Counted from the first letter of the stretch, positions 46,861 through 64,000 are shown. The stretch: DNA of 64,000 nucleotides from an uncultured Flavobacteriaceae bacterium (GCA_964494625.1 CAZBRT010000004.1:10578-74577), one strand, 5' to 3'. The notes: generated by a model not told the origin, from the sequence alone. Numbers and translations are program-made.

Positions 46861-47837
46861 TGGCGGTCATCCGGTCGCGCGTCGCTGGCCACGGCATTGC
46901 CTTGCCGCCGCGAATTGTCACCAATGCCGAACTCGCCCGGACAATCGACACCAGCGATGAATGGATTGCCGGACGCACCGGCATACGCCAACGCCATATC
47001 GCTGATCCGCCGATGCGGACATCCGACCTGGCGTATGAGGCTGCGGTGAAGGCGCTCGCCTCCGCCGGGCTTTCTGCTACTGACATCGACCTCATCGTCC
47101 TTGCAACCACAACCCCCGACGACACCTTTCCCGCGACAGCCACCGTCGTGCAATCACGCCTCGGCATGAAGACGGGGGCCGCCTTTGACGTGCAGGCGGT
47201 CTGTTCGGGCTTCATCTATGCGCTCAGCATCGCCGACAATTTCATCCGCTGCGGGCAGGCGCAACGCGTGCTGGTGATCGGCGCGGAAATGATGTCGCGC
47301 CTGCTCGACTGGAGCGACCGGGGCACTTGCGTCCTCTTCGGTGATGGTGCCGGTGCCTTTGTGCTGGACGCTGCCATCGGCCACGGCACCAACGACGACA
47401 CGGGGATCCTCTCGACCCACATCTACTCGGACGGCACGCATCGCGAGTTGCTTTATGTCGATGGCGGTCCGGGATCGACGGGGACGACAGGCAAATTGCG
47501 CATGCAGGGCAAAGAAGTCTTCCGCCATGCGGTCGTGAATATTTCTGATGCCATCAGCGCAGCGCTTGCTGCCGTGCGCATGAAGCCGGAAGACATTGAC
47601 TGGTTCGTGCCCCATCAGGCGAACCAACGCATCCTCGACGGGACCGCCAAGCGCCTGGGCGTGCCGCCTGGCAAGCTCATCTCGACCATTGCCCAGCACG
47701 GCAACACGTCGGCGGCCTCGGTGCCTCTGGCGTTCGGGACAGCGGTCGTGGACGGGCGTATCCAGCGCGGGCAGCTCTTGATGCTGGAAGCCATGGGCGG
47801 CGGTTTTACGTGGGGATCCGCGCTTTTGCGCTATTGA
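46860..47837 (+). CDS. fabH: 3-oxoacyl-[ACP] synthase III
   Basis: DTSDEWI..RTGI..R, active-site [11 protein letters not shown] and PHQAN.RI motifs. Confidence 0.96.
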
Positions 47838-47953
47838 GCGCGCCTGCGCGGGCTGAGGCGGGGCCGAGCAGATTCAGATCGCCCTCTATCGTATTGATAT
47901 TGACGGTAAATCCTTATGGGCCTAGCCTTTGCGAGTCGCGAGGGAGAGACCCC

Positions 47954-48292
47954 ATGGCTGAAAAGACGCTGACCCGGGCTGATTTGAGTGAGGCCGTTTA
48001 CCATGAGGTAGGCCTCTCCCGGAACGATTCCGCCGCCCTGGTCGAGGAAGTGCTGGAGGAAATCTCCAAAGCACTCATCGCCGATCAATCGGTCAAGCTC
48101 TCGTCGTTTGGCACGTTCATGGTTCGCCAGAAGGGCGGACGTGTGGGACGCAACCCCAAGACCGGACAGGAAGTGCCCATCCAGCCCCGCCGGGTTCTGG
48201 TGTTCCGCGCATCGCATGTGCTGAAGGACCAGATCAATGGGCGCGTACCGCCGCCTGCTGGCGCAACACCAAAGCCCGCTCCGCAAAGCTGA
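47954..48292 (+). CDS. ihfA: integration host factor subunit alpha
   Basis: [33 protein letters not shown]...GFGTF-like...[12 protein letters not shown]. The ORF was trimmed to the ATG at 47954. Confidence 0.93.
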
Positions 48293-48304
48293 CCTTGACC
48301 GGAA

Positions 48305-48916
48305 GTGCAGCCAACCCCCATGGCCATGACAGAACCTGACTACGATGATCTGCCCGAGCCCCAAGCGGGCGCAAGCACGCGTGGCCAGAAATCGCCCGAA
48401 GCCTTCCGGACGATCAGCGAAGTGTCCGCCGATCTTGATGTGCCGCAGCATGTGCTGCGCTTCTGGGAGACGAAGTTCAGCCAGATACGTCCGCTGAAGC
48501 GGGCCGGTGGCCGACGCTACTATCGCCCGGATGACCTCGACCTTTTGCGCGGCATCCGCCATCTCCTTTACAGCGACGGCTATACGATCAAGGGCGTGCA
48601 GAAATTGCTGCGTGAGCAGGGCCTGCGCAGCGTGATCGAAACAGGCCGGTCTTCGGTGAAGGCGACCAATGCGCCGGGCCGCGCGCGCGCGCAAAGCCGC
48701 ACGCGCTCCCCCGTTGCAGCTGCCCCTGCGGCGGCGCGCCCGCCGGAGATGCAGGGCGAGGCGGACCTTGCAGCCGGGGAGTTGAATTCGATCCTGGTGA
48801 CCGGGCCCCTAGATTATACCCAGCGCGAGGCGATGCAAAGCACGCTGGGGGCCTTGATCGACCTGCGCACATGGTTCGACAGCCAGCGCAGCCGTTTGGG
48901 CCGCCGCGCGGCCTAG
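48305..48916 (+). CDS. MerR-family transcriptional regulator
   Basis: [55 protein letters not shown] is a MerR HTH. It is the conserved partner downstream of ihfA. The start is uncertain (48305/48320/48326). Confidence 0.85.
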
Positions 48917-48966
48917 AATTTTCCCGATATTCTACCGGTTTGCGCCACGTGTGGGCCAATTGCGCG

Positions 48967-48995
48967 TTGCGTGCAAATGGCCAACTGCCTATAGT
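48967..48995 (+). promoter_or_regulatory. sigma70-like promoter candidate for tRNA-Pro
   Basis: TTGCGT-N17-TATAGT, about 75 nt upstream of the mature tRNA 5' end. Confidence 0.35.
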
Positions 48996-49071
48996 CCGCG
49001 GCCTTGCGGAGGCCGGTTGCCCGCTTTCCCCCTGATCGCGGGCATAAGCAACCAGCCATCACCGCCACGGT

Positions 49072-49148
49072 CGGAGCGTAGCGCAGCCTGGTAGCGCATC
49101 AGTCTGGGGGACTGGGGGTCGTGGGTTCAAATCCCGCCGCTCCGACCA
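49072..49148 (+). tRNA. tRNA-Pro (anticodon GGG)
   Basis: Hand-folded 77-nt cloverleaf. The acceptor stem pairs CGGAGCG with CGCTCCG. The D arm is GCGC-AGCCTGGTA-GCGC. The anticodon arm is TCAGT-CTGGGGG-ACTGG, with G37. The T arm is GTGGG-TTCAAAT-CCCGC. CCA is encoded. Confidence 0.93.
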
Positions 49149-49260
49149 ATGATTTCAAATAGTTAGCGTTTGAGAGCGAGCCATCATTTTTTAGGCGGCA
49201 ACCAGCGGGCAACCAAACGACGGCATATGCCCGCACCGGCCGGGTCGCGAATGGCGGGCC

Positions 49261-53888: not shown

Positions 53889-54311
53889 TCAGGCCAACTT
53901 GACCAATTTCGCCCTCTGCCCAGCCCGTATCCAGACGATTGCATTCTGGCCAAACTGCCGCCCGAGCTGACGCGCCATGGTGAGGTCGACACCGCAAACT
54001 AACAGGCTTTCTTCTACCGGCCACTCTCCATCGTCACCTTTGCCATAGCCAGCCACTGTCATAAGCCGCAGGCGCTTCGTAGTGGACAGAAGCCTTTTGT
54101 GGGCCGCACGATTGTGAACCTTGCTCCGCGCAGCGCTTGCCGGGTTCCAAGCGGTCACAAAGGCCGCAGAGTGCACTTGAAGCCTGCCTAGAAGCCGGTC
54201 GACTTCAGCTGATCGTTTGCCGACGCGGGCAATGATGTCACGCGGCTTCTGGCGGATCACATAAGCGGTCGCCCGATAAGCTGCCTCAAGTCTGGTCGCA
54301 CGTGCAAACAT
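53889..54311 (-). CDS. DUF3293-like protein
   Basis: FVTAWNPAS...GYGKGDDGEWPVEESLLVCGVDLTMARQLGRQFGQNAIVWI fits the DUF3293 pattern as I remember it. Start set to MFARATR at 54311. Confidence 0.65.
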   Translation of the reverse strand: MFARATRLEAAYRATAYVIRQKPRDIIARVGKRSAEVDRLLGRLQVHSAAFVTAWNPASAARSKVHNRAAHKRLLSTTKRLRLMTVAGYGKGDDGEWPVEESLLVCGVDLTMARQLGRQFGQNAIVWIRAGQRAKLVKLA

Positions 54312-54450
54312 GGGCAAACCCCTCACGTTCAGCCCACACGCTTCGCCATCAAGCATGTCGTGGACCTACTTCGCTTCACGATCACACTCTGACATCCGTT
54401 GCTGGCGCTGGCGGCGCCGTAGCAAGCGTATCAACCGGCTTGAAGATCGC
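54283..54450. repeat. direct repeat copy A (168 bp)
   Basis: Near-identical to 55182-55350. The last 64 bp are identical, and the middle 25 bp or so diverge. Covers the 3' end of the clamp-like gene, the intergenic spacer and the DUF3293 start. Confidence 0.95.
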
Positions 54451-55110
54451 CGTGACAGGCTTGGCGCTCATCGGCATGAAAACGCCATACCAACCCGGCG
54501 CTACCGACGCGGTGACAAGCGACGGTGCCTGCTGGTGATTTGGTCCGCCCTCGTTCCTGCCAAACGTGATGGCAATGTGGTGCCCGCCGCTCGCCTTTTG
54601 CAGGCGGATCAGCAGGGCGGGGTTGAGGCCGATTGACGGCGGGGTGCCGGGCTCGCTGACATCCGGCAGCACGCGCGCCCAATCAGGGAACGTGCCGTCA
54701 ATCTCGGCAGGCGTCTCGATGACGGAGAGCACGGCCCCATCGCTCGCGGTGAGCGAGATGCGCATCGGGCGGGAGCGACCATCGGCAGTGGCAGGCGTCG
54801 TATATTCCAGCCTGACGAGGGCCGTCACGGGGGAGTAGCGGCCACCCTTGCAGGCGGCCTTCAGCATCGCCGCGATCTGCTTGATAGCGTCGGTCGAGAT
54901 GATGATCTCGCGCTCGCTGGTGATCAGGTCGCCGTCGGTTTCTTCGGTCAGGCGGTGGACTGACATGATGTGGCCATCGGTGGCCGCAAGCCAGATGTCG
55001 CCGTCTCCGTCGGGCGCGCTGATGCAGACGCCGTTCAGGTAGTATTGGGTCTTTTCATTGCTGGCGGCGTGGGCGGTCTCAATCAGTTTCTTTGCAGGCA
55101 CGATCCACAT
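54382..55110 (-). CDS. DNA polymerase III beta (sliding clamp)-like protein, two-domain length
   Basis: QYYLNGVCIS...WLAATDGHIMSVHRL and IDGTFPDWARVLP resemble the DnaN YLxGV...ATDGHRL and FPDYxxVIP motifs. It is only 242 aa, versus about 370 for DnaN. Confidence 0.6.
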   Translation of the reverse strand: MWIVPAKKLIETAHAASNEKTQYYLNGVCISAPDGDGDIWLAATDGHIMSVHRLTEETDGDLITSEREIIISTDAIKQIAAMLKAACKGGRYSPVTALVRLEYTTPATADGRSRPMRISLTASDGAVLSVIETPAEIDGTFPDWARVLPDVSEPGTPPSIGLNPALLIRLQKASGGHHIAITFGRNEGGPNHQQAPSLVTASVAPGWYGVFMPMSAKPVTAIFKPVDTLATAPPAPATDVRV

Positions 55111-55181
55111 GTGTTTTCTCCGGTGTCGAGAGGAAAATTATGCAGGTGGGAGGGGATTTCTCCCCCCGTTGCTGTCAGGCG

Positions 55182-55350
55182 GCCTCAAGTCTGGTCGCAC
55201 GTGCAAATAGGGGCAAACCCCTCATGTTCAGCCCTCGCGTCACGGCAAAAAAGCAAGTTGCGGACCTAGTTCACTTCACGATCTCGCTCTGACATCCGTT
55301 GCTGGCGCTGGCGGCGCCGTAGCAAGCGTATCAACCGGCTTGAAGATCGC
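55182..55350. repeat. direct repeat copy B (169 bp)
   Basis: Matches 54283-54450. Covers the 3' end of 55276-56046 plus a relic of the DUF3293 start region in which the ATG is destroyed (gcaaacatggg becomes gcaaatagggg). Confidence 0.95.
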
Positions 55351-56180: not shown

Positions 56181-57515
56181 TCAATCCTTGACCCCCTGCT
56201 CGCGCTTGCGGCGCAAGAAGCTCATGCGGCTTGTCTCGGCGTCCCGGTCGAACGCTTCCGCCTCGCCAAAGCCGCGCAGCTTCCGGCGCATTTCCTTGGA
56301 CTGATAATGCGCTTCCTTCTGCAGCGCCATCTCGTCCCGCTGATGGGCGTAGCGGGAAAGGGTCGCGAGCGCATCGCGGACCCACTGATTGGATCCGGCT
56401 TCTTCACGAGCGGTCGCGAGTGTCGCTTCCACCTGCCGCCAGTCGCCACGCTGTGCGGCCGCCGCTGCCTGATCCATCAGTTCAGCAGCGCGCGACTCAC
56501 AGATGCGCGCATGGACTTCCTCGTTCCGGGGCAGGGCTTCAAAAGCAGCCGCCGTCATCACCGGCAGGCGCAGCGTTGCCTCCACCGAGACCGGCCCCCT
56601 GCCAAGTGCATGGAGCGTGACCTGACAGGAGAGGACGACGGGAGCGGTTCCCTCCACTGCAAGGGTCGCCGGGATGTGAATCTTGACCACCGAAATGGCA
56701 CTGGAACCTGACGCAACATCGGGCAACAGAAGCTGCTGGCCCTCGCGCAGGTGCCCATTACGTTCGTCAATGCGAGTGCCATCCGCCGGCGTGAAGCGAA
56801 GCGCAAGGTTCGTCGCGCGCATCGCCCGCAGGGCATCCAGCTCCTGCTCATAGCAGCCGATCAGTTCGGCCGAGGTCTTGCCGTAGTAGGCGTTGCCCGA
56901 GCCAAATTTGGCCATAACTGTCATCAGGCTCTCGCCAAAGTCTTGACCGATGCCAAATGTCGAGGTGGAAATGCCTGCGCGAGCCTGTTCCCGGCAAAGA
57001 CTGCTGAGCAGCACCGGATCGGTGAGCCCGCGATTAGCGATGCCATCCGAGAGAAGCAGCAAGCGCGCAAGGCGATCCACGGGCTGACTGCCCGGCACGG
57101 CATCGCCGAGACCTTGGCGCAGTGCGGCGATGCCCGTGTGCCATCCCGCGTGCAGATCCGTCATGCCACGGGGCGTCACTGCGTCGACCGCGTCGCGCGC
57201 ATCACTCCAGTTTCTCAGCGGACCAAAAGGCACCACCTCCACGGCCATGTCATCATAAGCGATGACGCCGATGCGATCGTTGCTGCCGACGCGATCGATG
57301 ATCGCGCGTACGCAGCGCTTCACGTCCTCAAGGGACAAGGCCATGGAGCCGGAGCGGTCGATCACGATGGAAAGATCAAGCGCTGCGCCATTGGGGATAG
57401 CATCTTCCTGTCCGGTCGCGCTCACTTTGATGAGGGCGTCGATCGCATTGTCACGGCCTGCGATGAGGCCCTGATGCAGGGGCAGGATTTCAAGGGTGAA
57501 GTCAGTCATGGTCAT
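56181..57515 (-). CDS. von Willebrand factor type A (vWA) domain protein
   Basis: Canonical MIDAS IVIDRSGSM, IGVIAYDD and LLLSDGIANRG. This is followed by a beta-rich region and a helical, charged C-terminus. Confidence 0.85.
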   Translation of the reverse strand: MTMTDFTLEILPLHQGLIAGRDNAIDALIKVSATGQEDAIPNGAALDLSIVIDRSGSMALSLEDVKRCVRAIIDRVGSNDRIGVIAYDDMAVEVVPFGPLRNWSDARDAVDAVTPRGMTDLHAGWHTGIAALRQGLGDAVPGSQPVDRLARLLLLSDGIANRGLTDPVLLSSLCREQARAGISTSTFGIGQDFGESLMTVMAKFGSGNAYYGKTSAELIGCYEQELDALRAMRATNLALRFTPADGTRIDERNGHLREGQQLLLPDVASGSSAISVVKIHIPATLAVEGTAPVVLSCQVTLHALGRGPVSVEATLRLPVMTAAAFEALPRNEEVHARICESRAAELMDQAAAAAQRGDWRQVEATLATAREEAGSNQWVRDALATLSRYAHQRDEMALQKEAHYQSKEMRRKLRGFGEAEAFDRDAETSRMSFLRRKREQGVKD

Positions 57516-57676
57516 ATTCCTTTCAGGGGGCTAGGCGGGGGTTGAACAAGGCAGCGCAAAATGCACGCAGATATCCGTCACCGGCAGACGGCCGGTGCTG
57601 GCCTGCACCAATCGGGGCAGGGATCAGGCTTGAAGCTGTGGGTTGGTTTTCAGCTCAGGGCTTCGGCGCACGGGCC

Positions 57677-59401
57677 TTAGCTGAGCGACAACCGGGGCAA
57701 TCGCTTCCACCGGCTGCGCAGGCTCTCGAACAGAAGGCCAAACTGGGCAGTCAGTTGCGCGCCCTCGGGCAAGCGCGCAACATAGGGGCTGAAGTAGCGG
57801 TACTGCTCGACCTGCAGGCGATCCAGCTCGGCCTTGCGATCTTCCGCTGCAAGAACGATGGCGCGCCGGGCCACCGTCTCAAGCCAGCTGATCGCCACAA
57901 TCCGGGCCGCATGAAGGTCGACGGGCTGCGCGTCGTTTTCGCGGGCGGGAACCAGCTTGAAGTGCACGCGGGAGCCAAGTTTGACCTTCTTGGCGGCAAC
58001 AATGTCCTCGCCGGTCAGCTGGATATCGACGTCATCAAGGTCGCGCACCCCCGGCACTTTGTGGAACCGCCTTGATCCCGGAAAATGCAGCCGGACCGGG
58101 ATCGATAGGCGGCTGCCAGCGCGCAAATCGCCCAAAGGAATGATGAAGGGCTTGCCAGCGCCTGTTGCGCCATCTTCGCCGACGCGCCCAATAAGCCCCT
58201 TTTTCCAAGAGTCGATACCGCCATCAAGGCGCGGAGTGACGATGAGGCTGCAATTGCGGGCCACGATTGGCCGGAGCGTGAGGTGGTGTGCCAGAACGTG
58301 TTCTGAGAGATCACACAGTGTCTCGCCAAAGCGGAGCGGCGCGCCATCCTCTCCACCGCCTTCCATGGCAAGAAGCAGCGCCATGTCGGGTCGCGCGCCA
58401 AGGCCCAACGCAACCGTCTTGATGTTGGCATTGGCCAGTTCGGCAGCAGCGTTGGCGACTTGGCGCGGGTCGTTTTCGCCCCGGTCAGTGCCTGCATCAG
58501 TAAAGACAAGTACACGGCATGTGATACCTGGCTTGGCGTATTCCGAGAGTTCTTCCGCCGCTGCGAGCCATGTGTCGACAAGATCAATGGCGCTGGCGGC
58601 ATAGCCAACGCGCAAAACCTCGCGCGCCGCCGCCTTGCCACGACGGTCCATGGCGGTCAGCGGCATCGCGCGGACCGGCCCCTTATCGCCCCAGAAGATC
58701 GCAAGCTGATCTTCCGCCCGCATCGCTTGGATGATCTGCTCCAGAGTGCGAGCAGCGTTTGTGCGGATGGTGCTTGAGCGCGTATCGATGACGGCGGCGA
58801 CAATGTTCGGCGGCGCATCTTTGGAGGCGGGGGATGAGGCGATGGTACCGGCTGATTCAGAAGCGCCCTGATCACCCGCAACCGCTTCGATGGTTACAAC
58901 GACATGACGAACCGATCCGCCATTGTTCCAGCCCAGCTGCCGATCCACGCGTGTCGAGACGGCGAGAGACCGGGATTTGGCAACAGGTGTGGCAAGTTCC
59001 GTGTGCTTTGCTGTCTGCGGCACCCGAGGCGGCATATCAACTTCATCAGCTTCACGCGACTGCAGACGATCGCGCAGCGCCTTGATCCTGTCCTTGAGGT
59101 CTGCGTGCTGGGGCAACAACAGAGACCGCATGCGGTCTTCACTGGCCGTGGCCAGCCACGAGAGGATCGCGGGATAGCGCAGCTTTTCGACCTCACGCAG
59201 GTGCCGGATCACACGGGCGCGGATGAGGTGGGTGCCCGTGTAGTAGGAAGCGCGCGCCTTTCCCTCAGGTCCAGCCAAGAGTTTCTTTTCGATATAGAAG
59301 CGGATGAGGCGCTCGTCGACGCCAGAGGCATCGGCAAGCTCCTTCAGCGAATACTGGTCCGCCATCGCCGTGGTGTTGATCGGTTCATCACTCATGGTCA
59401 A
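57677..59401 (-). CDS. MerR-type HTH fused to a vWA-like domain
   Basis: The N-terminus YSLKELADASGVDERLIRFYIEKKLL...YYTGTHLIRARVIRHL is a MerR HTH. The central region is vWA-like (VAAVIDTRSS..., VLVFTDAGTDRG, VALGLG) with a non-canonical MIDAS. The post-vWA region is arranged like that of the downstream gene. Confidence 0.75.
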   Translation of the reverse strand: MTMSDEPINTTAMADQYSLKELADASGVDERLIRFYIEKKLLAGPEGKARASYYTGTHLIRARVIRHLREVEKLRYPAILSWLATASEDRMRSLLLPQHADLKDRIKALRDRLQSREADEVDMPPRVPQTAKHTELATPVAKSRSLAVSTRVDRQLGWNNGGSVRHVVVTIEAVAGDQGASESAGTIASSPASKDAPPNIVAAVIDTRSSTIRTNAARTLEQIIQAMRAEDQLAIFWGDKGPVRAMPLTAMDRRGKAAAREVLRVGYAASAIDLVDTWLAAAEELSEYAKPGITCRVLVFTDAGTDRGENDPRQVANAAAELANANIKTVALGLGARPDMALLLAMEGGGEDGAPLRFGETLCDLSEHVLAHHLTLRPIVARNCSLIVTPRLDGGIDSWKKGLIGRVGEDGATGAGKPFIIPLGDLRAGSRLSIPVRLHFPGSRRFHKVPGVRDLDDVDIQLTGEDIVAAKKVKLGSRVHFKLVPARENDAQPVDLHAARIVAISWLETVARRAIVLAAEDRKAELDRLQVEQYRYFSPYVARLPEGAQLTAQFGLLFESLRSRWKRLPRLSLS

Positions 59402-59549
59402 GCCGCCTGTCTCATAAAATCTCGGGGGATCGCCCCCGTGCTAAGTCGCGTGTGGCCCACTCGCGGGCGCTCCCTCTAGGAACTTGTCGACGGTTCCGTG
59501 CCCAAGGCACCACCCTCAAGGCCAGAAGGTTATCGACCCATTTCCTCAT

Positions 59550-59604
59550 CATATAGTATGGCGTAATAGAATTATCAAGCCATATTGCCGTTATTCCGCA
59601 TGGC
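59550..59604 (-). promoter_or_regulatory. candidate promoter plus operator for the MerR-vWA gene
   Basis: On the minus strand there is TTGATA-N17-TATATG. It overlaps the palindrome TATGGC-N16-GCCATA (59557-59584), and a third half-site CATGGC lies at 59599-59604. The whole lies in the most AT-rich patch of the island. Confidence 0.35.
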
Positions 59605-60355: not shown

Positions 60356-61459
60356 TCAGTCGACCAGCGGCGGCAGCTGCAGTGCGTTGCGCTCACCCGA
60401 TTGCGGGGCTAGAAACCGGCGGCAGTTGACATAGCGCTCTAGGGATTGTTGGGCTGAGAAGGGCTTTGGCGGGGGGCTGCCGAACTCGATCTCGTGCCAG
60501 CGATATCGAAAATGCGACAGGAAGAGCCTGAGTGTGTGGCGCTTGGCGCGTTCATGAATATCTATGTCTGGCAGTTTTCCCGCGGCATAGGCCACATAGT
60601 CGTCGGCATCCTTGCCGATGTGACGTTCGCTGAGGGCTTTGGCTGCAAGTTCAGCGAACTGCCCCGCCTCGCTTCTTGCAGTAATTATTTCCCTGAAGTT
60701 GACATAGGCGTGCCCATAAACACCGTTGGGATGGCCCGACGACTTTGCAAGTAAGCCGGCCAACCTCCAGCAAAGGTCGCGCACATGCGGCTTACATGCC
60801 TCGAATGAGATCGCCTCGGCCAGATTTGCGCGGGTGAGCCAATCGTTGCCGAGATCTTCGTCGTCTGGAGTATCTGTGCCATAATTGTTGTCCCGGCACT
60901 GACGGTTCTTCATTTGTCGAATGATTCGACGGGGATTGCGCCCGGCGGCGACGGCTACTGCGGTGACATCTTCGAGCGTGAGAACGTGTTGGGAGCAAAC
61001 CACACGGGTAATCAAATCCTCCGCCCTCTGAGCGCTGTACAACTTTGCCGTGGGATCAAGCCCCGCAATGCGAAGCAAGCGACTCTCTGTCGGGATCTTT
61101 TGCAAGTCGAAGAAGGATATCAATCCAGCGGCGCTGACAGCATCAACGCCGGGGATGGACCGCAGCCAACGCCCAATTCTCTGACTCTTGGCGTAGTCAT
61201 CTAGGACCGTCATGATGCCGTGTTCGACGGTTTCCGTGCGAACAGTCATCCACTGAGTGACGCCGTTTTTGCCCGTGGCACCCTTGGTGCGCGTCAACAA
61301 CTTCGCGGCTGATTTTAGGATGCGCTGGAGATCCAAGAAGGTGCGGGCGAGATGCGCCGCTTCTGTCTTGGTCAGGGGGCGAGGTTCGGACCCATGGATG
61401 GGCTCTTTGCCGTCAGAAAAATCGGGTAAGTCAGGTGGACCTGAATCGGTCGTGGTCAT
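60356..61459 (-). CDS. hypothetical protein with IS110-C-terminal-like helix-hairpin-helix segment
   Basis: LRSIPGVDAVSAAGLISFFDLQKIPTESRLLRIAGLDPT resembles the Transposase_20 HhH region. No DEDD/RuvC-like N-terminal domain is seen. Confidence 0.5.
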   Translation of the reverse strand: MTTTDSGPPDLPDFSDGKEPIHGSEPRPLTKTEAAHLARTFLDLQRILKSAAKLLTRTKGATGKNGVTQWMTVRTETVEHGIMTVLDDYAKSQRIGRWLRSIPGVDAVSAAGLISFFDLQKIPTESRLLRIAGLDPTAKLYSAQRAEDLITRVVCSQHVLTLEDVTAVAVAAGRNPRRIIRQMKNRQCRDNNYGTDTPDDEDLGNDWLTRANLAEAISFEACKPHVRDLCWRLAGLLAKSSGHPNGVYGHAYVNFREIITARSEAGQFAELAAKALSERHIGKDADDYVAYAAGKLPDIDIHERAKRHTLRLFLSHFRYRWHEIEFGSPPPKPFSAQQSLERYVNCRRFLAPQSGERNALQLPPLVD

Positions 61460-61999
61460 GGCTAGCTTCCTAAGTTTGACGCTCGCGAAACGCGTATCCC
61501 ATGCCGAACCCGATTGTTTGCCATTTGGGGCCGCATGCCGCTGAACGCGGAACCACCTTGCCCGGGCGCGGGCAGGTTGGCGGAGGCACGTGCCTCGCTC
61601 GCTATGCTGATGGATGTGATGCTGCTGCTGGTGCCAGCAGCGCCGCTATGTGGATTGGGTCATTGCTCGTCTCCCTCTTTGCCTCATGGCCTCGTCTTTG
61701 AACCACCGTGCCGGAGTAGGTCGGTTGGCGGGGCAGCGCCCCTTCTTGACGAAATTCTCAATGACCACACGTCGATCATCGACCTCTTGAACGCTAGTGA
61801 AGGATTCTGCTTTTGTAAAGCGGATGCTGCACGAGCGGTCTGGCTCTGAACTTCCTTTGTAATTTTGGCGAAATTTTGTCAGGTCGCCGTTGTTTCATCT
61901 TGTGCTGTTGTCGAAGGCTGGCGACGGCACTGAAGGGCCATCAACCTCCACATTATATCAAACCCGCCATGTCATGCCTGCCCCTGTGCATGAAAGCTC

Positions 62000-62925: not shown

Positions 62926-64000
62926 CTAGCCTTGACGTGCCCGCCGAAGAATGTCGGCCATGAAGTCCCGCGCACCCTGAAGCTCCGGGTCAGAATCGAG
63001 ATCGCGATGTTCGAGGACTTTTTCGACGAAGCCGGGTCCATGCCCGCCATCGATGCTCCGACAAAAACCTTCTAACTCGCCTTCCGGCACGATCGACAAC
63101 CCCACCGTCGAGCACCGCATAAGTATGCTATCAAACTTTTTCACTGCTTCGCCTTGAGGGAGCCCCGCTCTTCCTGCACGCTTCACATCGTCCCAAGGGG
63201 AGACCGTCTTGAATATGCGATTTATCGCCTTTTCCTTTTCCTTTGGGAAAGGTTCTGTCCCCCCAACGCCTTGCAACTCGCTTCGAATCATTTCTGCAAC
63301 CTGCTCAGCATTGAGCGGCGGCTTCCTGCTTTCAATCGCGGTCTTTAGAGCCTTCCAGTCGCCCTTTACTGCGTCCCATGATCCACCAAGCGTTACAAGC
63401 AATTTGCGGAATGTGTGCTCTACGTTCAGTAGATCAACATCTGCAATCACCGTAACCGGAACGTCCAATTCCTTGAGCATAACGGCTAGATTGGCCATGC
63501 GATGCTTACCTGCGGCGTGAATGAAGAGCACGTCCGCGCGGCGTGTACCTGATACGGCATTTGTTTTCAGAATAGAGCTGTAGAACAAGCAATCGGCATC
63601 GGATTCGCAGATAACAACATGCTGATAGAAAATGCCCCCGAACACGTTGGAGTATCGGGTGAGCGTGTCGCTAGCGATTTCAGCCGTACGTTCCTTGCTA
63701 AGCTCTTTGACGCGATTGACCGATTCGTGGCGTTGGATACGAACGATCCGGACCTTGTTTGCGCCGCCGGAAATTAGACCTTCGAGAACATCCGCACTGT
63801 GGGTTGCGATGAATAGCTGTGACTTCGCTTTCCGTTCGCGCGCGATGAGTTCCCCAATCAATCTAGCTTGGGGTGGGTGCAAGAACGCTTCTGGCTCATC
63901 AAGAAATTGAATAGAGTGATTATCGGCAACAAGTATGTAAAGCAGAACCGTCGCAAAGCTCCGCATTCCATCGCCTTGCGCTTCTAACGGAGTAGCTTGC
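62926..64000 (-). CDS. OLD-family ATP-dependent nuclease (ABC-type ATPase + Toprim), 5' end outside the window
   Basis: QGDGMRSF signature-like, FLDEPEAFLHP Walker B and IATHS. The Toprim-like part is VVICESDADCLFY...VTVIADVDLL. The reading frame stays open to position 64000. Confidence 0.8.
   Translation of the reverse strand, partial: QATPLEAQGDGMRSFATVLLYILVADNHSIQFLDEPEAFLHPPQARLIGELIARERKAKSQLFIATHSADVLEGLISGGANKVRIVRIQRHESVNRVKELSKERTAEIASDTLTRYSNVFGGIFYQHVVICESDADCLFYSSILKTNAVSGTRRADVLFIHAAGKHRMANLAVMLKELDVPVTVIADVDLLNVEHTFRKLLVTLGGSWDAVKGDWKALKTAIESRKPPLNAEQVAEMIRSELQGVGGTEPFPKEKEKAINRIFKTVSPWDDVKRAGRAGLPQGEAVKKFDSILMRCSTVGLSIVPEGELEGFCRSIDGGHGPGFVEKVLEHRDLDSDPELQGARDFMADILRRARQG

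What the first reader, a model, noticed from the sequence alone, without database searches (positions are those of the whole stretch)
56181..59401. MerR-HTH-vWA fusion plus a second vWA protein: a candidate two-gene module without the usual vWA partners
The 574-aa protein joins a clear MerR-type DNA-binding domain to a vWA-like fold. Its metal site is non-canonical (VIDTRSS instead of DxSxS). The 444-aa protein 161 bp downstream has a canonical MIDAS (VIDRSGSM) and the LLLSDG block. After the vWA fold both proteins continue with a beta-rich segment and a helical, charged C-terminus, so they look like diverged paralogues: one may be catalytic or ligand-competent and the other regulatory. Bacterial vWA conflict systems that I know pair vWA with MoxR-type AAA+ ATPases or with kinase/phosphatase partners (TerY-type). 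No such gene lies within several kb on either side. A transcription-factor-vWA fusion is not an architecture I recognise as characterised. The pair sits in an island string that ends in an OLD nuclease, so by association it could be a defence, abortive-infection or element-maintenance switch. This is a hypothesis.
Basis: partly seen in the sequence, partly recalled or inferred. Interest (0 to 1): 0.7.

Follow-up and report, generated by a model that had tools for sequence, protein, structure and literature searches.

The report
MerR-fused pseudo-vWA plus vWA partner
Two neighbouring genes encode a DNA-binding protein fused to a crippled copy of an ArnB-type vWA sensor, plus an intact copy; they are a rare fused form of a widespread, unstudied bacterial MerR + vWA gene pair that probably acts as a transcription switch and often sits in phage-defence islands.

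Summary
ORF 57677-59401(-) joins a MerR_1 HTH to a full vWA / beta-sandwich / helical-bundle module whose MIDAS is degenerate. ORF 56181-57515(-), 161 bp downstream, is a paralogue (24% identity, E 2e-9) with an intact MIDAS. Both have the ArnB / Sec23-24-core architecture. The family-B profile matches archaeal ArnB (8s05) over its whole length, E 4e-21.

The pair is syntenic in three lineages (about 100%, 80% and 55% identity) with unrelated flanks. In two more distant lineages the MerR part is a separate gene just upstream, and the intact paralogue is still adjacent. In all 29 genome loci that carry a "family A" vWA protein, from many phyla, a MerR gene lies directly upstream. The window therefore holds a rare fused and duplicated variant of a widespread MerR + ArnB-like vWA operon. 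I found no name for it in Pfam, NCBIfam or PADLOC and no literature on it.

A promoter with a GCCAT/ATGGC dyad (59545-59604) is conserved upstream. No MoxR, kinase, phosphatase or FHA partner is present. Closer relatives sit beside Hma, Druantia-like, DISARM, McrBC and BREX genes.

Most likely it is a self-contained MerR-type switch with a heteromeric vWA sensor. A defence role is plausible but untested.

The parts
57677..59401 (-). Gene A: MerR-HTH fused to a pseudo-vWA ArnB-like module. It is 574 aa from TTG 59401; the probable start is ATG 59395, giving 572 aa.
   Evidence: ORF list. Identical to public protein P0001. Pfam MerR_1. AF2 model, pLDDT 81.5. Foldseek hits 4fx5, 5a8j and 8s05.
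59174..59353 (-). MerR-type winged HTH, residues 17-76. It is followed by helices to about residue 119; the last of these, 102-119, is a putative dimerisation helix modelled with low confidence.
   Evidence: Pfam PF13411, E 6.5e-10. AF2 secondary structure. 47% identical to the separate MerR protein of L011.
58283..58807 (-). vWA-fold domain of gene A (residues about 199-373) with a degenerate MIDAS. D206-T-R-S-S lies at 58772-58786; the MIDAS Thr is replaced by Ile272; T301-D302 are kept.
   Evidence: BLASTP to gene B. Alignments. MIDAS column table.
57686..58267 (-). Beta-sandwich (residues 379-484, together with N-terminal strands 146-173 at 58883-58966) and C-terminal helical bundle (residues 496-572) of gene A. 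The C-terminal tail found in MIDAS-intact relatives is missing.
   Evidence: AF2. Tail-length analysis.
56181..57515 (-). Gene B: stand-alone ArnB-like vWA protein with an intact MIDAS. It is 444 aa; the probable start is ATG 57509, giving 442 aa.
   Evidence: Pfam VWA. AF2 pLDDT 90.1, pTM 0.87. Foldseek 8s05_A, E 6e-22, TM 0.63/0.71. Profile versus ArnB, E 4e-21, over the full length.
56826..57383 (-). vWA domain of gene B (residues 45-230). MIDAS D53-R-S55-G-S57 lies at 57345-57359; T119 and D157 are also present.
   Evidence: These columns are invariant in alignment A2. Column table.
56184..56282 (-). Conserved basic C-terminal tail of gene B, ending ...SFLRRKREQG.
   Evidence: Alignment A3. 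In family A the tail is retained only where the MIDAS is intact.
59545..59604 (-). Candidate promoter and operator of the module: CGCCATG-N13-CAATATGGC-TTGATA(-35)-N9-CGCCAT-N2-TATATG(-10). There are three GCCAT/ATGGC half-sites forming two overlapping dyads.
   Evidence: It is the only conserved block in the upstream region between the window and the about 80%-identity lineage L005. A partial match, AATATGACTTGAC, occurs in L011. The simple sigma-70 scan did not call it.
57516..57676 (-). 161-bp spacer between genes A and B. It has no strong terminator, and AAGGA precedes the start of gene B. The relatives have spacers of similar length (113-167 bp).
   Evidence: Sequence. Terminator scan. 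Gene tables.

Best explanation
The two genes form a self-contained regulatory module. It is a derived version of a widespread bacterial operon in which a MerR-family DNA-binding protein works with an ArnB-type vWA protein (vWA domain inserted in a beta-sandwich, followed by a helical bundle).

Shown:
- Gene A fuses the MerR HTH directly to a 'family A' ArnB-like module that has lost its metal site and its C-terminal tail.
- Gene B is a paralogous ArnB-like protein that keeps both.
- The A-B pairing is conserved across five lineages, in two gene orders.
- MerR-A linkage holds in every family-A locus examined.

Inferred:
- The MerR domain dimerises and binds the conserved GCCAT/ATGGC dyads that overlap the -35 and spacer of the module's own promoter (59545-59604).
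- The vWA module takes the place of the effector-binding domain of classical MerR regulators.
- In this lineage the sensor is split into a structural pseudo-vWA subunit (A, tethered to DNA) and a ligand-competent subunit (B).
- B's MIDAS, perhaps together with its conserved tail, captures an acidic residue of a protein ligand or of a partner, and so switches transcription.

The module travels as cargo in variable, mobile and defence-rich regions. Its output is probably control of itself and of neighbouring island genes in response to an intracellular protein or stress cue.
For: - Domain architecture: Pfam MerR_1 and VWA. AF2 models with pLDDT 81.5 and 90.1. Foldseek top hits for both proteins are the ArnB complex 8s05, the ArnB paralogue 5a8j and 4fx5. 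The family-B profile matches ArnB over residues 50-411, E 4e-21.
- Paralogy: BLASTP E 2e-9.
- Conserved pairing: the same order and spacing in the window/L001/L002, in L004-L007 (80% and 84% identity) and in L003/L008 (59% and 52% identity), with unrelated flanks.
- Split forms (Rosetta-stone evidence): L011/L012 carry MerR (192 aa, HTH 47% identical), then 3 bp, then P0109 (33% identical to A), then B (39% identical). L013 carries a divergent B, then MerR, then P0110.
- General linkage: 29 of 29 family-A loci from Alphaproteobacteria, Chloroflexi, Planctomycetes, Acidobacteria, Melainabacteria, Actinobacteria and Gammaproteobacteria have a MerR ORF abutting or overlapping the vWA gene. The P0280 contigs show the same.
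- Docking motif: split MerR partners carry a conserved C-terminal motif, W.R..ITPD.EL.VRG...ER.AD.LR..L. It is kept in the read-through fusions P0129 and P0149 and lost in the window's tighter fusion. This is consistent with a docking element made redundant by covalent linkage.
- MIDAS and tail: the five MIDAS residues are invariant in canonical family A. The MIDAS is degenerate only in a clade that also lacks the tail: 10 of 10, against 0 long-tail cases. The B partner appears only in a sub-clade of that clade.
- Operator: a conserved promoter/dyad block lies upstream.
Against: - No experiment and no heteromer model: A-B contact is inferred from gene neighbourhood only.
- The promoter has a 17-bp spacer in the window rather than the 19-20 bp typical of MerR activators. 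The dyad is short, and similar 5-bp dyads occur by chance elsewhere.
- The predicted dimerisation helix is short and of low confidence.
- The MIDAS-tail co-loss is a single evolutionary event (one NJ clade), so it is weak as statistics.
- No conserved regulated target gene was found. Downstream genes of 9 family-A loci are unrelated.
- P0112, which has a degenerate MIDAS, has no B neighbour.
- The ArnA/ArnB authors found no direct DNA binding for the archaeal complex (PMC12852372), so analogy cannot supply the mechanism.
Confidence: 0.5

Rival explanations
1. The pair is itself a phage-defence or abortive-infection system. B's MIDAS recognises a phage protein, and the MerR-A/B complex then acts as the effector, for example by shutting down or activating transcription or by sequestering a target. 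On this reading it is more than a regulator of other genes.
For: - The window island carries an OLD-family nuclease, and T5orf172, DEAD-helicase and SLFN/AlbA genes lie just beyond the window.
- The 80%-identity relative lies between HmaA/HmaB (1522 and 706 bits) and DruE-like genes.
- P0110 is next to McrBC, Vsr and Dcm.
- P0112 is next to BrxB.
- The P0280 module is next to an integrase and BrxR-BREX.
- L045 is next to DrmD at 830 bits.
- It is a compact two-gene cassette with variable flanks and a patchy taxonomic spread.
- The island sits after ihfA-like/merR/tRNA-Pro, as does P. aeruginosa defence hotspot cDHS1 (PMC10250203).
Against: - No PADLOC model matches either vWA protein. The only hit is a weak one of the HTH to mad1.
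- No enzymatic or membrane effector domain is present.
- Across 124 neighbours of family-A genes, many are housekeeping genes (AcrB, CPSase, TrpA, aldehyde dehydrogenase).
- Regulators also accumulate in defence islands (BrxR, CapW), so context does not distinguish an effector from a regulator.
Confidence: 0.22
2. It is a divalent-cation-responsive MerR regulator. The MIDAS metal site, rather than a protein ligand, is the sensor, by analogy with metal-sensing MerR proteins.
For: - MerR-family HTH, with weak NCBIfam similarity of relatives to CadR/PbrR, MerR and SoxR and PDB similarity to CadR.
- MIDAS residues are strictly conserved in canonical family A and in B.
Against: - Neighbours show no recurrent metal transport or resistance genes.
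- The DNA-bound subunit in the window has lost its metal site.
- MIDAS sites normally use the metal to bind a protein carboxylate. They are not known as metal-concentration sensors (established knowledge of vWA/integrin I domains).
Confidence: 0.1
3. It is a toxin-antitoxin-like addiction module. The HTH protein would be an autoregulating antitoxin whose C-terminal motif neutralises the vWA protein.
For: - In the split forms, a small HTH gene overlaps the downstream gene by 4-14 nt.
- The HTH protein has a disordered linker plus a short conserved C-terminal motif.
- The location is mobile and variable.
- One partner has a weak AbiEi_4 hit.
Against: - The HTH and vWA parts are fused into one polypeptide in at least three independent lineages (window type, P0129, P0149). 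That is hard to reconcile with toxin release.
- A 430-aa scaffold fold without an enzymatic domain is unlike known toxins.
Confidence: 0.06
4. The two genes are adjacent only because of a local duplication and have no functional link.
For: They are paralogues.
Against: - They are only 24% identical and belong to distinct sub-families. A is nearer to other family-A proteins than to B. The duplication is therefore not recent.
- The pairing survives down to 33-39% identity and in two different gene orders.
Confidence: 0.03

Closest known systems
ArnA/ArnB archaellum-regulatory module of Sulfolobus (PDB 8s05, 5a8j; PMC12852372, PMC6509490)
   Same: - Both window proteins share ArnB's three-part architecture: a beta-sandwich split by a vWA domain, followed by a C-terminal helical bundle. 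This holds by fold and by sequence profile (E 4e-21).
- As in ArnA/ArnB, the vWA protein is encoded next to a small partner that has a nucleic-acid-binding-type N-terminal domain, a flexible linker and a C-terminal docking element.
- The role is regulatory, not enzymatic.
   Different: - The partner is a MerR HTH, here fused, instead of a zinc ribbon plus FHA.
- There is no Ser/Thr kinase or PP2A phosphatase nearby.
- One copy has lost its MIDAS, and a second paralogue is added.
- The host is bacterial, and the module is island-borne.
Classical MerR-family one-component regulators (MerR, CueR, SoxR, BmrR, TipAL)
   Same: An N-terminal winged HTH of the MerR_1 type is followed by a helix and then a C-terminal signal-receiving part. 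A candidate dyad operator overlaps the -35/spacer of the module's own promoter.
   Different: - The sensor is a 430-aa vWA / beta-sandwich / helical module, in other lineages a separate protein, rather than a small metal- or drug-binding domain.
- The spacer is 17 bp rather than 19-20 bp.
- Dimerisation and DNA distortion are untested.
TerY-P triad (Gao et al. 2020 defence system: TerY vWA + PP2C phosphatase + Ser/Thr kinase)
   Same: An intracellular bacterial vWA protein with a MIDAS, located in conflict or defence islands.
   Different: - There is no kinase or phosphatase.
- No PADLOC TerY model matches.
- The protein is twice the size, with ArnB-type extra domains.
- It is coupled to an HTH.
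MoxR-vWA (and vWA-MoxR-VMAP) systems
   Same: A vWA protein with a MIDAS acts as an adaptor or sensor in a small operon.
   Different: There is no AAA+ MoxR ATPase within about 10 kb. The partner is a transcription-factor domain.
Sec23/Sec24 core of the eukaryotic COPII coat
   Same: The same trunk (vWA) + beta-sandwich + helical arrangement. Two diverged paralogues act as a pair.
   Different: No zinc-finger or gelsolin domains, and no membrane-traffic context. Heterodimerisation here is only inferred.
Defence-island transcription regulators such as BrxR/CapW (WYL-domain)
   Same: An HTH plus sensor domain regulator, carried next to BREX, DISARM and similar systems.
   Different: The folds are unrelated. 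No evidence yet links the MerR-vWA module to control of a particular defence operon.

Membership tests
MerR family of transcription regulators | N-terminal winged helix-turn-helix of the MerR type | tested here: met
   Pfam PF13411, 39.4 bits against a cutoff of 21.6, residues 17-76. AF2 shows helix-turn-helix, wing and helices with pLDDT about 90.
MerR family of transcription regulators | Long antiparallel coiled-coil dimerisation helix after the HTH | tested here: inconclusive
   A helix is predicted at residues 102-119, but pLDDT is below 50 in the monomer model and the helix is shorter than usual.
MerR family of transcription regulators | Dyad operator inside a promoter with an over-long (19-20 bp) spacer | tested here: inconclusive
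   A conserved GCCAT/ATGGC dyad overlaps the -35 and spacer at 59545-59604. The spacer is 17 bp in the window and ambiguous (16-19 bp) in L005. Binding was not tested.
vWA domain with functional MIDAS | Rossmann-like vWA fold | tested here: met
   Gene B: Pfam VWA, E 4e-12. Gene A: no Pfam hit, but BLASTP to B, the AF2 model and Foldseek show the fold.
vWA domain with functional MIDAS | DxSxS motif plus downstream Thr and Asp | tested here: met
   This row is for gene B: D53, S55, S57, T119 and D157 are all present and invariant in its family.
vWA domain with functional MIDAS | DxSxS motif plus downstream Thr and Asp (gene A) | tested here: not met
   Gene A has D206-T-R-S-S and Ile272 in place of Thr. 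Only Asp302 is kept. The pattern is the same in the three lineages.
ArnB-like / Sec23-24 core architecture | Beta-sandwich topologically split by the vWA domain, followed by a C-terminal helical bundle | tested here: met
   AF2 secondary-structure order. Foldseek probability 1.0, TM 0.63-0.73 for B against 8s05, 4fx5 and 5a8j. Profile match to ArnB residues 44-383.
ArnA/ArnB system | ZnF-FHA partner (ArnA) and control by Ser/Thr kinase and phosphatase | tested here: not met
   Pfam finds no FHA, zinc-ribbon, kinase or phosphatase gene within about 10 kb.
TerY-P defence system | TerY-type vWA + PP2C + Ser/Thr kinase triad | tested here: not met
   Neither vWA protein hits PADLOC. No kinase or PP2C neighbour.
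MoxR-vWA systems | Adjacent MoxR-class AAA+ ATPase | tested here: not met
   No AAA_3, AAA_5 or bpMoxR hit in the neighbourhood.
YfbK / DUF3520-type vWA proteins | vWA with an N-terminal PF12450 domain and a C-terminal PF12034 (DUF3520) domain | tested here: not met
   Pfam gives no such hits. YfbK-like proteins appear only as remote hits, E about 5e-9, covering 43% of the query.
MerR + ArnB-like vWA operon (unnamed family defined here) | A MerR_1 HTH encoded immediately upstream of, or fused to, a family-A vWA / beta-sandwich / helical protein | tested here: met
   Fused in the window. Split in L011, L013, L014-L019 and in 29 of 29 genome loci.

The most novel reading that the evidence does not exclude
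The MerR + ArnB-like vWA operon is a new, widespread class of bacterial one- or two-component sensor. In it, a MIDAS-bearing Sec23/24-like scaffold detects an intracellular protein, for example a phage or mobile-element protein, and directly drives a MerR-type transcription switch. The window's fused pseudo-vWA + vWA heterodimer would be a specialised anti-phage or island-guard version that turns on neighbouring defence cargo. This would also give the first direct link between ArnB-type scaffolds and DNA binding, which is the missing step in the archaeal ArnA/ArnB pathway.
Probability: 0.2. Interest if true: 0.8.

Novelty: new variant of a known kind. Interest (0 to 1): 0.62.

Why it matters
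- ArnB-type vWA scaffolds occur in all three domains of life (ArnB, Sec23/24, plant WAV3). How the prokaryotic ones reach gene expression is an open question. The 2026 ArnAB structure paper concludes that an unknown DNA-binding factor must mediate the effect (PMC12852372).
- Here the bacterial homologues are linked, and in this window covalently fused, to a MerR DNA-binding domain in every family-A locus examined. That gives a directly testable route from scaffold to promoter.
- The module is common across phyla, yet it has no curated family, no defence-system model and no literature that I could find. Characterising it would annotate many 'VWA domain-containing protein' / 'MerR family regulator' gene pairs.
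- The window's version, a pseudo-vWA tethered to DNA plus an intact paralogue, is a natural dissection of structural and ligand-binding roles.
- It sits in defence islands, so it is a reasonable candidate for a phage-sensing switch.

Tried and rejected
- Word-indexed homologue search with the 574-aa protein found only 3 proteins. Repeating it with a family-A alignment was swamped by generic vWA proteins and added little.
- tblastn of the 574-aa protein against PLSDB plasmids found no match.
- The genome-contig scan with the 574-aa protein found no relative. The A3 alignment was too diverse to seed a scan.
- I looked for a conserved third gene. The upstream 212-aa and downstream 256-aa ORFs of the window have no counterparts in L005 or L008 by BLASTP. 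A 213-226-aa divergent gene is shared by L004/L005 and L003/L008 but is absent from the window. Genes downstream of family-A proteins in 9 loci are unrelated to each other. I rejected a fixed third component.
- TerY-P, MoxR-vWA and YfbK/DUF3520 memberships were rejected (see the membership tests).
- I searched for the operator dyad elsewhere in the window as a sign of a regulon. Only chance-level matches inside coding regions were found.
- Literature searches for MerR together with vWA in several forms returned nothing relevant.
- The MIDAS/tail co-loss looked like a strong 10-to-0 association. The NJ tree shows it is one clade, so I do not treat it as independent replication.
- Follow-up of the neighbouring 367-aa TIGR-Tas-like ORF found no relatives in metagenome, viral, plasmid or phage collections.


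Full report
**1. What is in the sequence.**
Two co-directional ORFs lie on the minus strand: 57677..59401 (574 aa) and 56181..57515 (444 aa), separated by 161 bp. Public gene calls start six bases inside each ORF, giving 572 and 442 aa (P0001 and P0004). Pfam places a MerR_1 HTH at residues 17-76 of the long protein (E 6.5e-10). It places VWA, VWA_2 and VWA_3 at residues 47-217 of the short one. Pfam sees no vWA domain in the long protein. The two proteins nevertheless align over 269 residues (24% identity, E 2e-9).

AlphaFold2 models show the same order of elements in both: N-terminal beta strands, a vWA domain, the rest of a beta-sandwich, then a helical bundle. In the long protein this is preceded by the HTH and a low-confidence linker helix. 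Mean pLDDT is 90.1 for the short protein and 81.5 for the long one.

The MIDAS of the short protein is complete: D53, S55, S57, T119 and D157. That of the long protein reads D206-T-R-S-S with Ile272 in place of Thr, and this pattern is conserved in its relatives. That includes the absence of MoxR, kinase and phosphatase genes nearby and the OLD-family gene at 62926 onward.

**2. What fold and family.**
Foldseek against the PDB gives the same top hits for both models:
- the ArnA-ArnB complex of Sulfolobus (8s05, deposited as 'an archaeal ortholog of the Sec23/24 core motif');
- the ArnB paralogue 5a8j;
- the Catenulispora vWA protein 4fx5.

Inter-alpha-inhibitor heavy chains and Sec23/24 follow these. 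A sequence profile of the short protein's family matches ArnB over residues 50-411 (E 4e-21). The similarity is therefore homology across the whole three-part architecture, not only the vWA domain. The paper on 8s05 describes ArnB as a vWA domain inserted in an eight-stranded beta-sandwich plus a regulatory helical bundle. It notes bacterial look-alikes (4fx5, YfbK) and says that how ArnAB reaches transcription is unresolved (PMC12852372).

**3. Two sub-families.**
An exhaustive HMMER search of 1.84 billion representative proteins with the long protein's profile found one full-length cluster only. The next hits were about 410-450-aa proteins that align with residues about 143-570, so they lack the MerR part. 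An alignment separates two groups:
- 'Family A' has the N-terminal motif DRxLxWxxGxSVRY. The C-terminal 430 aa of the long protein belong here.
- 'Family B' ends in SFLRRKREQG. The short protein belongs here.

My own HMMs for the two families separate them cleanly.

**4. Conserved pairing.**
- The fused gene A plus gene B occur together, in the same order and with similar spacing, in three lineages: the window with its identical contigs L001/L002; L004-L007 (80% and 84% identity); and L003/L008 (59% and 52% identity). The flanking genes differ.
- In L011/L012, the nearest unfused family-A protein (P0109, E 8e-61) lies 3 bp downstream of a 192-aa MerR gene whose HTH is 47% identical to the window's. 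A family-B gene 39% identical to the window's follows it.
- In L013, P0110 is preceded by a 207-aa MerR gene, and a family-B gene lies divergently upstream.
- P0112 has the MerR gene but no B.

These cases split one polypeptide into two genes, which is classic Rosetta-stone evidence for a functional link. B stays adjacent in two different gene orders.

**5. The general rule.**
A scan of one genome per species returned 80 loci. All 29 whose vWA protein scores as family A have a MerR ORF abutting or overlapping the start of the vWA gene. They come from Rhodobacterales, Acetobacterales, Rhizobiales, Chloroflexi, Planctomycetes, Acidobacteria, Melainabacteria/Obscuribacterales, an actinobacterium and a Pseudomonadales MAG.
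- The abundant P0280 cluster shows the same, with a 14-nt overlap.
- Eight family-B-like loci, from cyanobacteria, an acidobacterium and others, also have a MerR partner.
- Independent fusions with an intact MIDAS exist: P0129 (671 aa) and P0149 (619 aa).
- The separate MerR partners share a C-terminal motif of about 45 aa, W.R..ITPD.EL.VRG...ER.AD.LR..L, which has no Pfam family. P0129 and P0149 keep it, and the junction still reads ...GGTTM. They look like simple read-through fusions. The window's lineage has deleted the motif. I read it as the element that docks the MerR protein on the vWA protein; this is an inference.
- Neither NCBIfam nor PADLOC has a model for A, for B or for the partner. 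Five literature searches found nothing on a MerR-vWA module.

**6. MIDAS and tail.**
Among full-length family-A proteins:

| MIDAS | Tail after the conserved Trp | Count |
|---|---|---|
| intact | at least 30 aa | 58 |
| intact | shorter (mostly 24-29 aa) | 7 |
| degenerate | 3-20 aa | 10 |
| degenerate | long | 0 |

A neighbour-joining tree puts all ten degenerate proteins, plus P0118 (short tail, intact MIDAS), in one clade. The B-associated ones (P0110, P0109 and the window type) form a sub-clade. The pattern is thus a single evolutionary history and not replicated evidence. It suggests an order of events: tail loss, then MIDAS decay, then recruitment of an intact paralogue. It also suggests that tail and MIDAS work together. 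In the window, A has neither and B has both.

**7. Regulatory DNA.**
The only block conserved between the upstream regions of the window and L005 is CGCCATG-N13-CAATATGGC-TTGATA-N9-CGCCAT-N2-TATATG, at window 59604-59545 on the minus strand. L011 has AATATGACTTGAC at the equivalent place. It looks like a sigma-70 promoter with three GCCAT/ATGGC half-sites forming two overlapping dyads around the -35 and spacer. That is the geometry expected for a MerR-type operator, although the spacer is 17 bp. The crude promoter scan did not call it, and such short dyads occur by chance elsewhere.

**8. Context.**
- The window comes from a Micropepsaceae-like alphaproteobacterium, judged from housekeeping proteins that share 90%-identity clusters with MAG proteins of that name.
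- The island begins right after tRNA-Pro (49072-49148). That tRNA follows an IHF/HU-like gene and an unrelated MerR gene. The same landmarks flank defence hotspot cDHS1 of P. aeruginosa (PMC10250203).
- The island holds an AlpA-type HTH, a large ATPase-like protein, a truncated DnaN-like gene, the vWA pair, a TIGR-Tas/IS110-like ORF and an OLD-family nuclease. Beyond the window it holds T5orf172, a DEAD helicase and an SLFN/AlbA gene.
- In L005 the pair sits between HmaA/HmaB and DruE-like genes.
- L045 has DrmD next door. L013 has McrBC, Vsr and Dcm. The P0112 contig has BrxB. L019 has an integrase and BrxR-BREX.
- Over 124 neighbours of family-A genes the picture is mixed, with transposases and helicases but also ordinary metabolic genes.

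**9. Interpretation.**
The best-supported reading is a self-contained MerR-type switch whose effector-binding part is an ArnB-like vWA scaffold. In this lineage that part is divided into a DNA-tethered pseudo-vWA subunit and a ligand-competent paralogue.
- Shown: the architecture, the homology to ArnB, the conserved linkage and the conserved upstream block.
- Inferred: DNA binding at that block, A-B contact, the ligand-sensing role of B's MIDAS and tail, and any output.
- Rivals: a stand-alone defence system, a metal sensor and a toxin-antitoxin-like module cannot be excluded. The fusions argue against the toxin-antitoxin reading.

**10. Verdict.**
The fused, duplicated form is very rare, but it belongs to a widespread and apparently uncharacterised MerR + ArnB-like vWA operon. 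I rate it a new variant of a known kind (ArnB-type regulatory scaffolds; MerR regulators), of moderately high interest.

Noticed in passing
window 61504-61612 and 61666-61757, minus strand: Two tandem full-length matches to the Rfam SAM-I/IV riboswitch aptamer (RF01725): 56.7 and 54.9 bits against a gathering score of 41.1, with the conserved core preserved. They lie directly upstream of the 367-aa ORF 60356..61459(-) and at the head of a long co-directional gene string. Each aptamer is followed by a mini-ORF of 5 or 10 codons. A SAM-off switch in front of island cargo could respond to SAM depletion, for example by phage SAM lyases. That idea is speculative.
   Followed up: partly
window 60356-61459, minus strand: A 367-aa ORF hits NCBIfam NF052498 'TIGR-Tas system RNA-guided endonuclease' at 77 bits (below the cutoff of 100, E 1.8e-21, profile positions 33-214 of 215). 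It also hits IS110 Transposase_20 and phrog_4285 'transposase', more weakly. TRF found no tandem guide array nearby. No relatives were found in metagenome, viral, plasmid or phage collections.
   Followed up: partly
window 54280-54450 and 55179-55350: A direct repeat of about 170 bp (90-93% identity, 900-bp spacing) covers the last ~23 codons and the downstream DNA of two unrelated ORFs: the DnaN-like 54382..55110 and the 256-aa 55276..56046. Both proteins end in ...IFKPVDTLATAPPAPATDVR. It looks like a cassette boundary or a recombination scar.
   Followed up: no
window 54382-55110, minus strand: A 242-aa ORF resembles only the central domain of the DNA polymerase III beta clamp (Pfam DNA_pol3_beta_2; phrog_947 and phrog_3007). 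It is a stand-alone clamp-like protein carried by the island.
   Followed up: no
window 47800-49150 and onward: The island starts immediately after tRNA-Pro (GGG), which follows an IHF/HU-like gene and an unrelated 198-aa MerR gene. The same landmarks (ihfA, merR, tRNA-Pro) flank core defence hotspot 1 of Pseudomonas aeruginosa (PMC10250203).
   Followed up: partly
window 59423-59438, minus strand: A GC-rich hairpin, CGGGGGCGATCCCCCG followed by AGATTTTATG, lies in the presumed 5' leader about 30 nt before the start codon of the MerR-vWA gene. L005 has a hairpin at a similar position but without the T run. It could be an attenuator or a leader structure.
   Followed up: no
L005 1-5469 and 13067-21329; L045 3972-7055: In the 80%-identity relative, the MerR-vWA/vWA pair is wedged between a complete Hma pair (HmaA 1522 bits, HmaB 706 bits) and DruE-like Druantia genes. 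In an unrelated MAG, a split MerR-vWA pair lies next to a full-length DISARM DrmD (830 bits).
   Followed up: yes
L011 292-870, L013 994-1617, L014 1880-2530 and about 30 other loci: The stand-alone MerR partners of ArnB-like vWA proteins share an undescribed C-terminal motif of about 45 aa, W.R..ITPD.EL.VRG...ER.AD.LR..L, after a disordered linker. No Pfam family matches it.
   Followed up: partly
L009 1889-5353 and 7002-13046: An orphan family-B vWA gene (P0010, 37% identical to gene B) lies beside a histone-deacetylase-like gene, two Exo_endo_phos genes and a CHAT protease. A MoxR/vWA set lies a few kb away. This is a different conflict-system-like setting for the same vWA sub-family.
   Followed up: no
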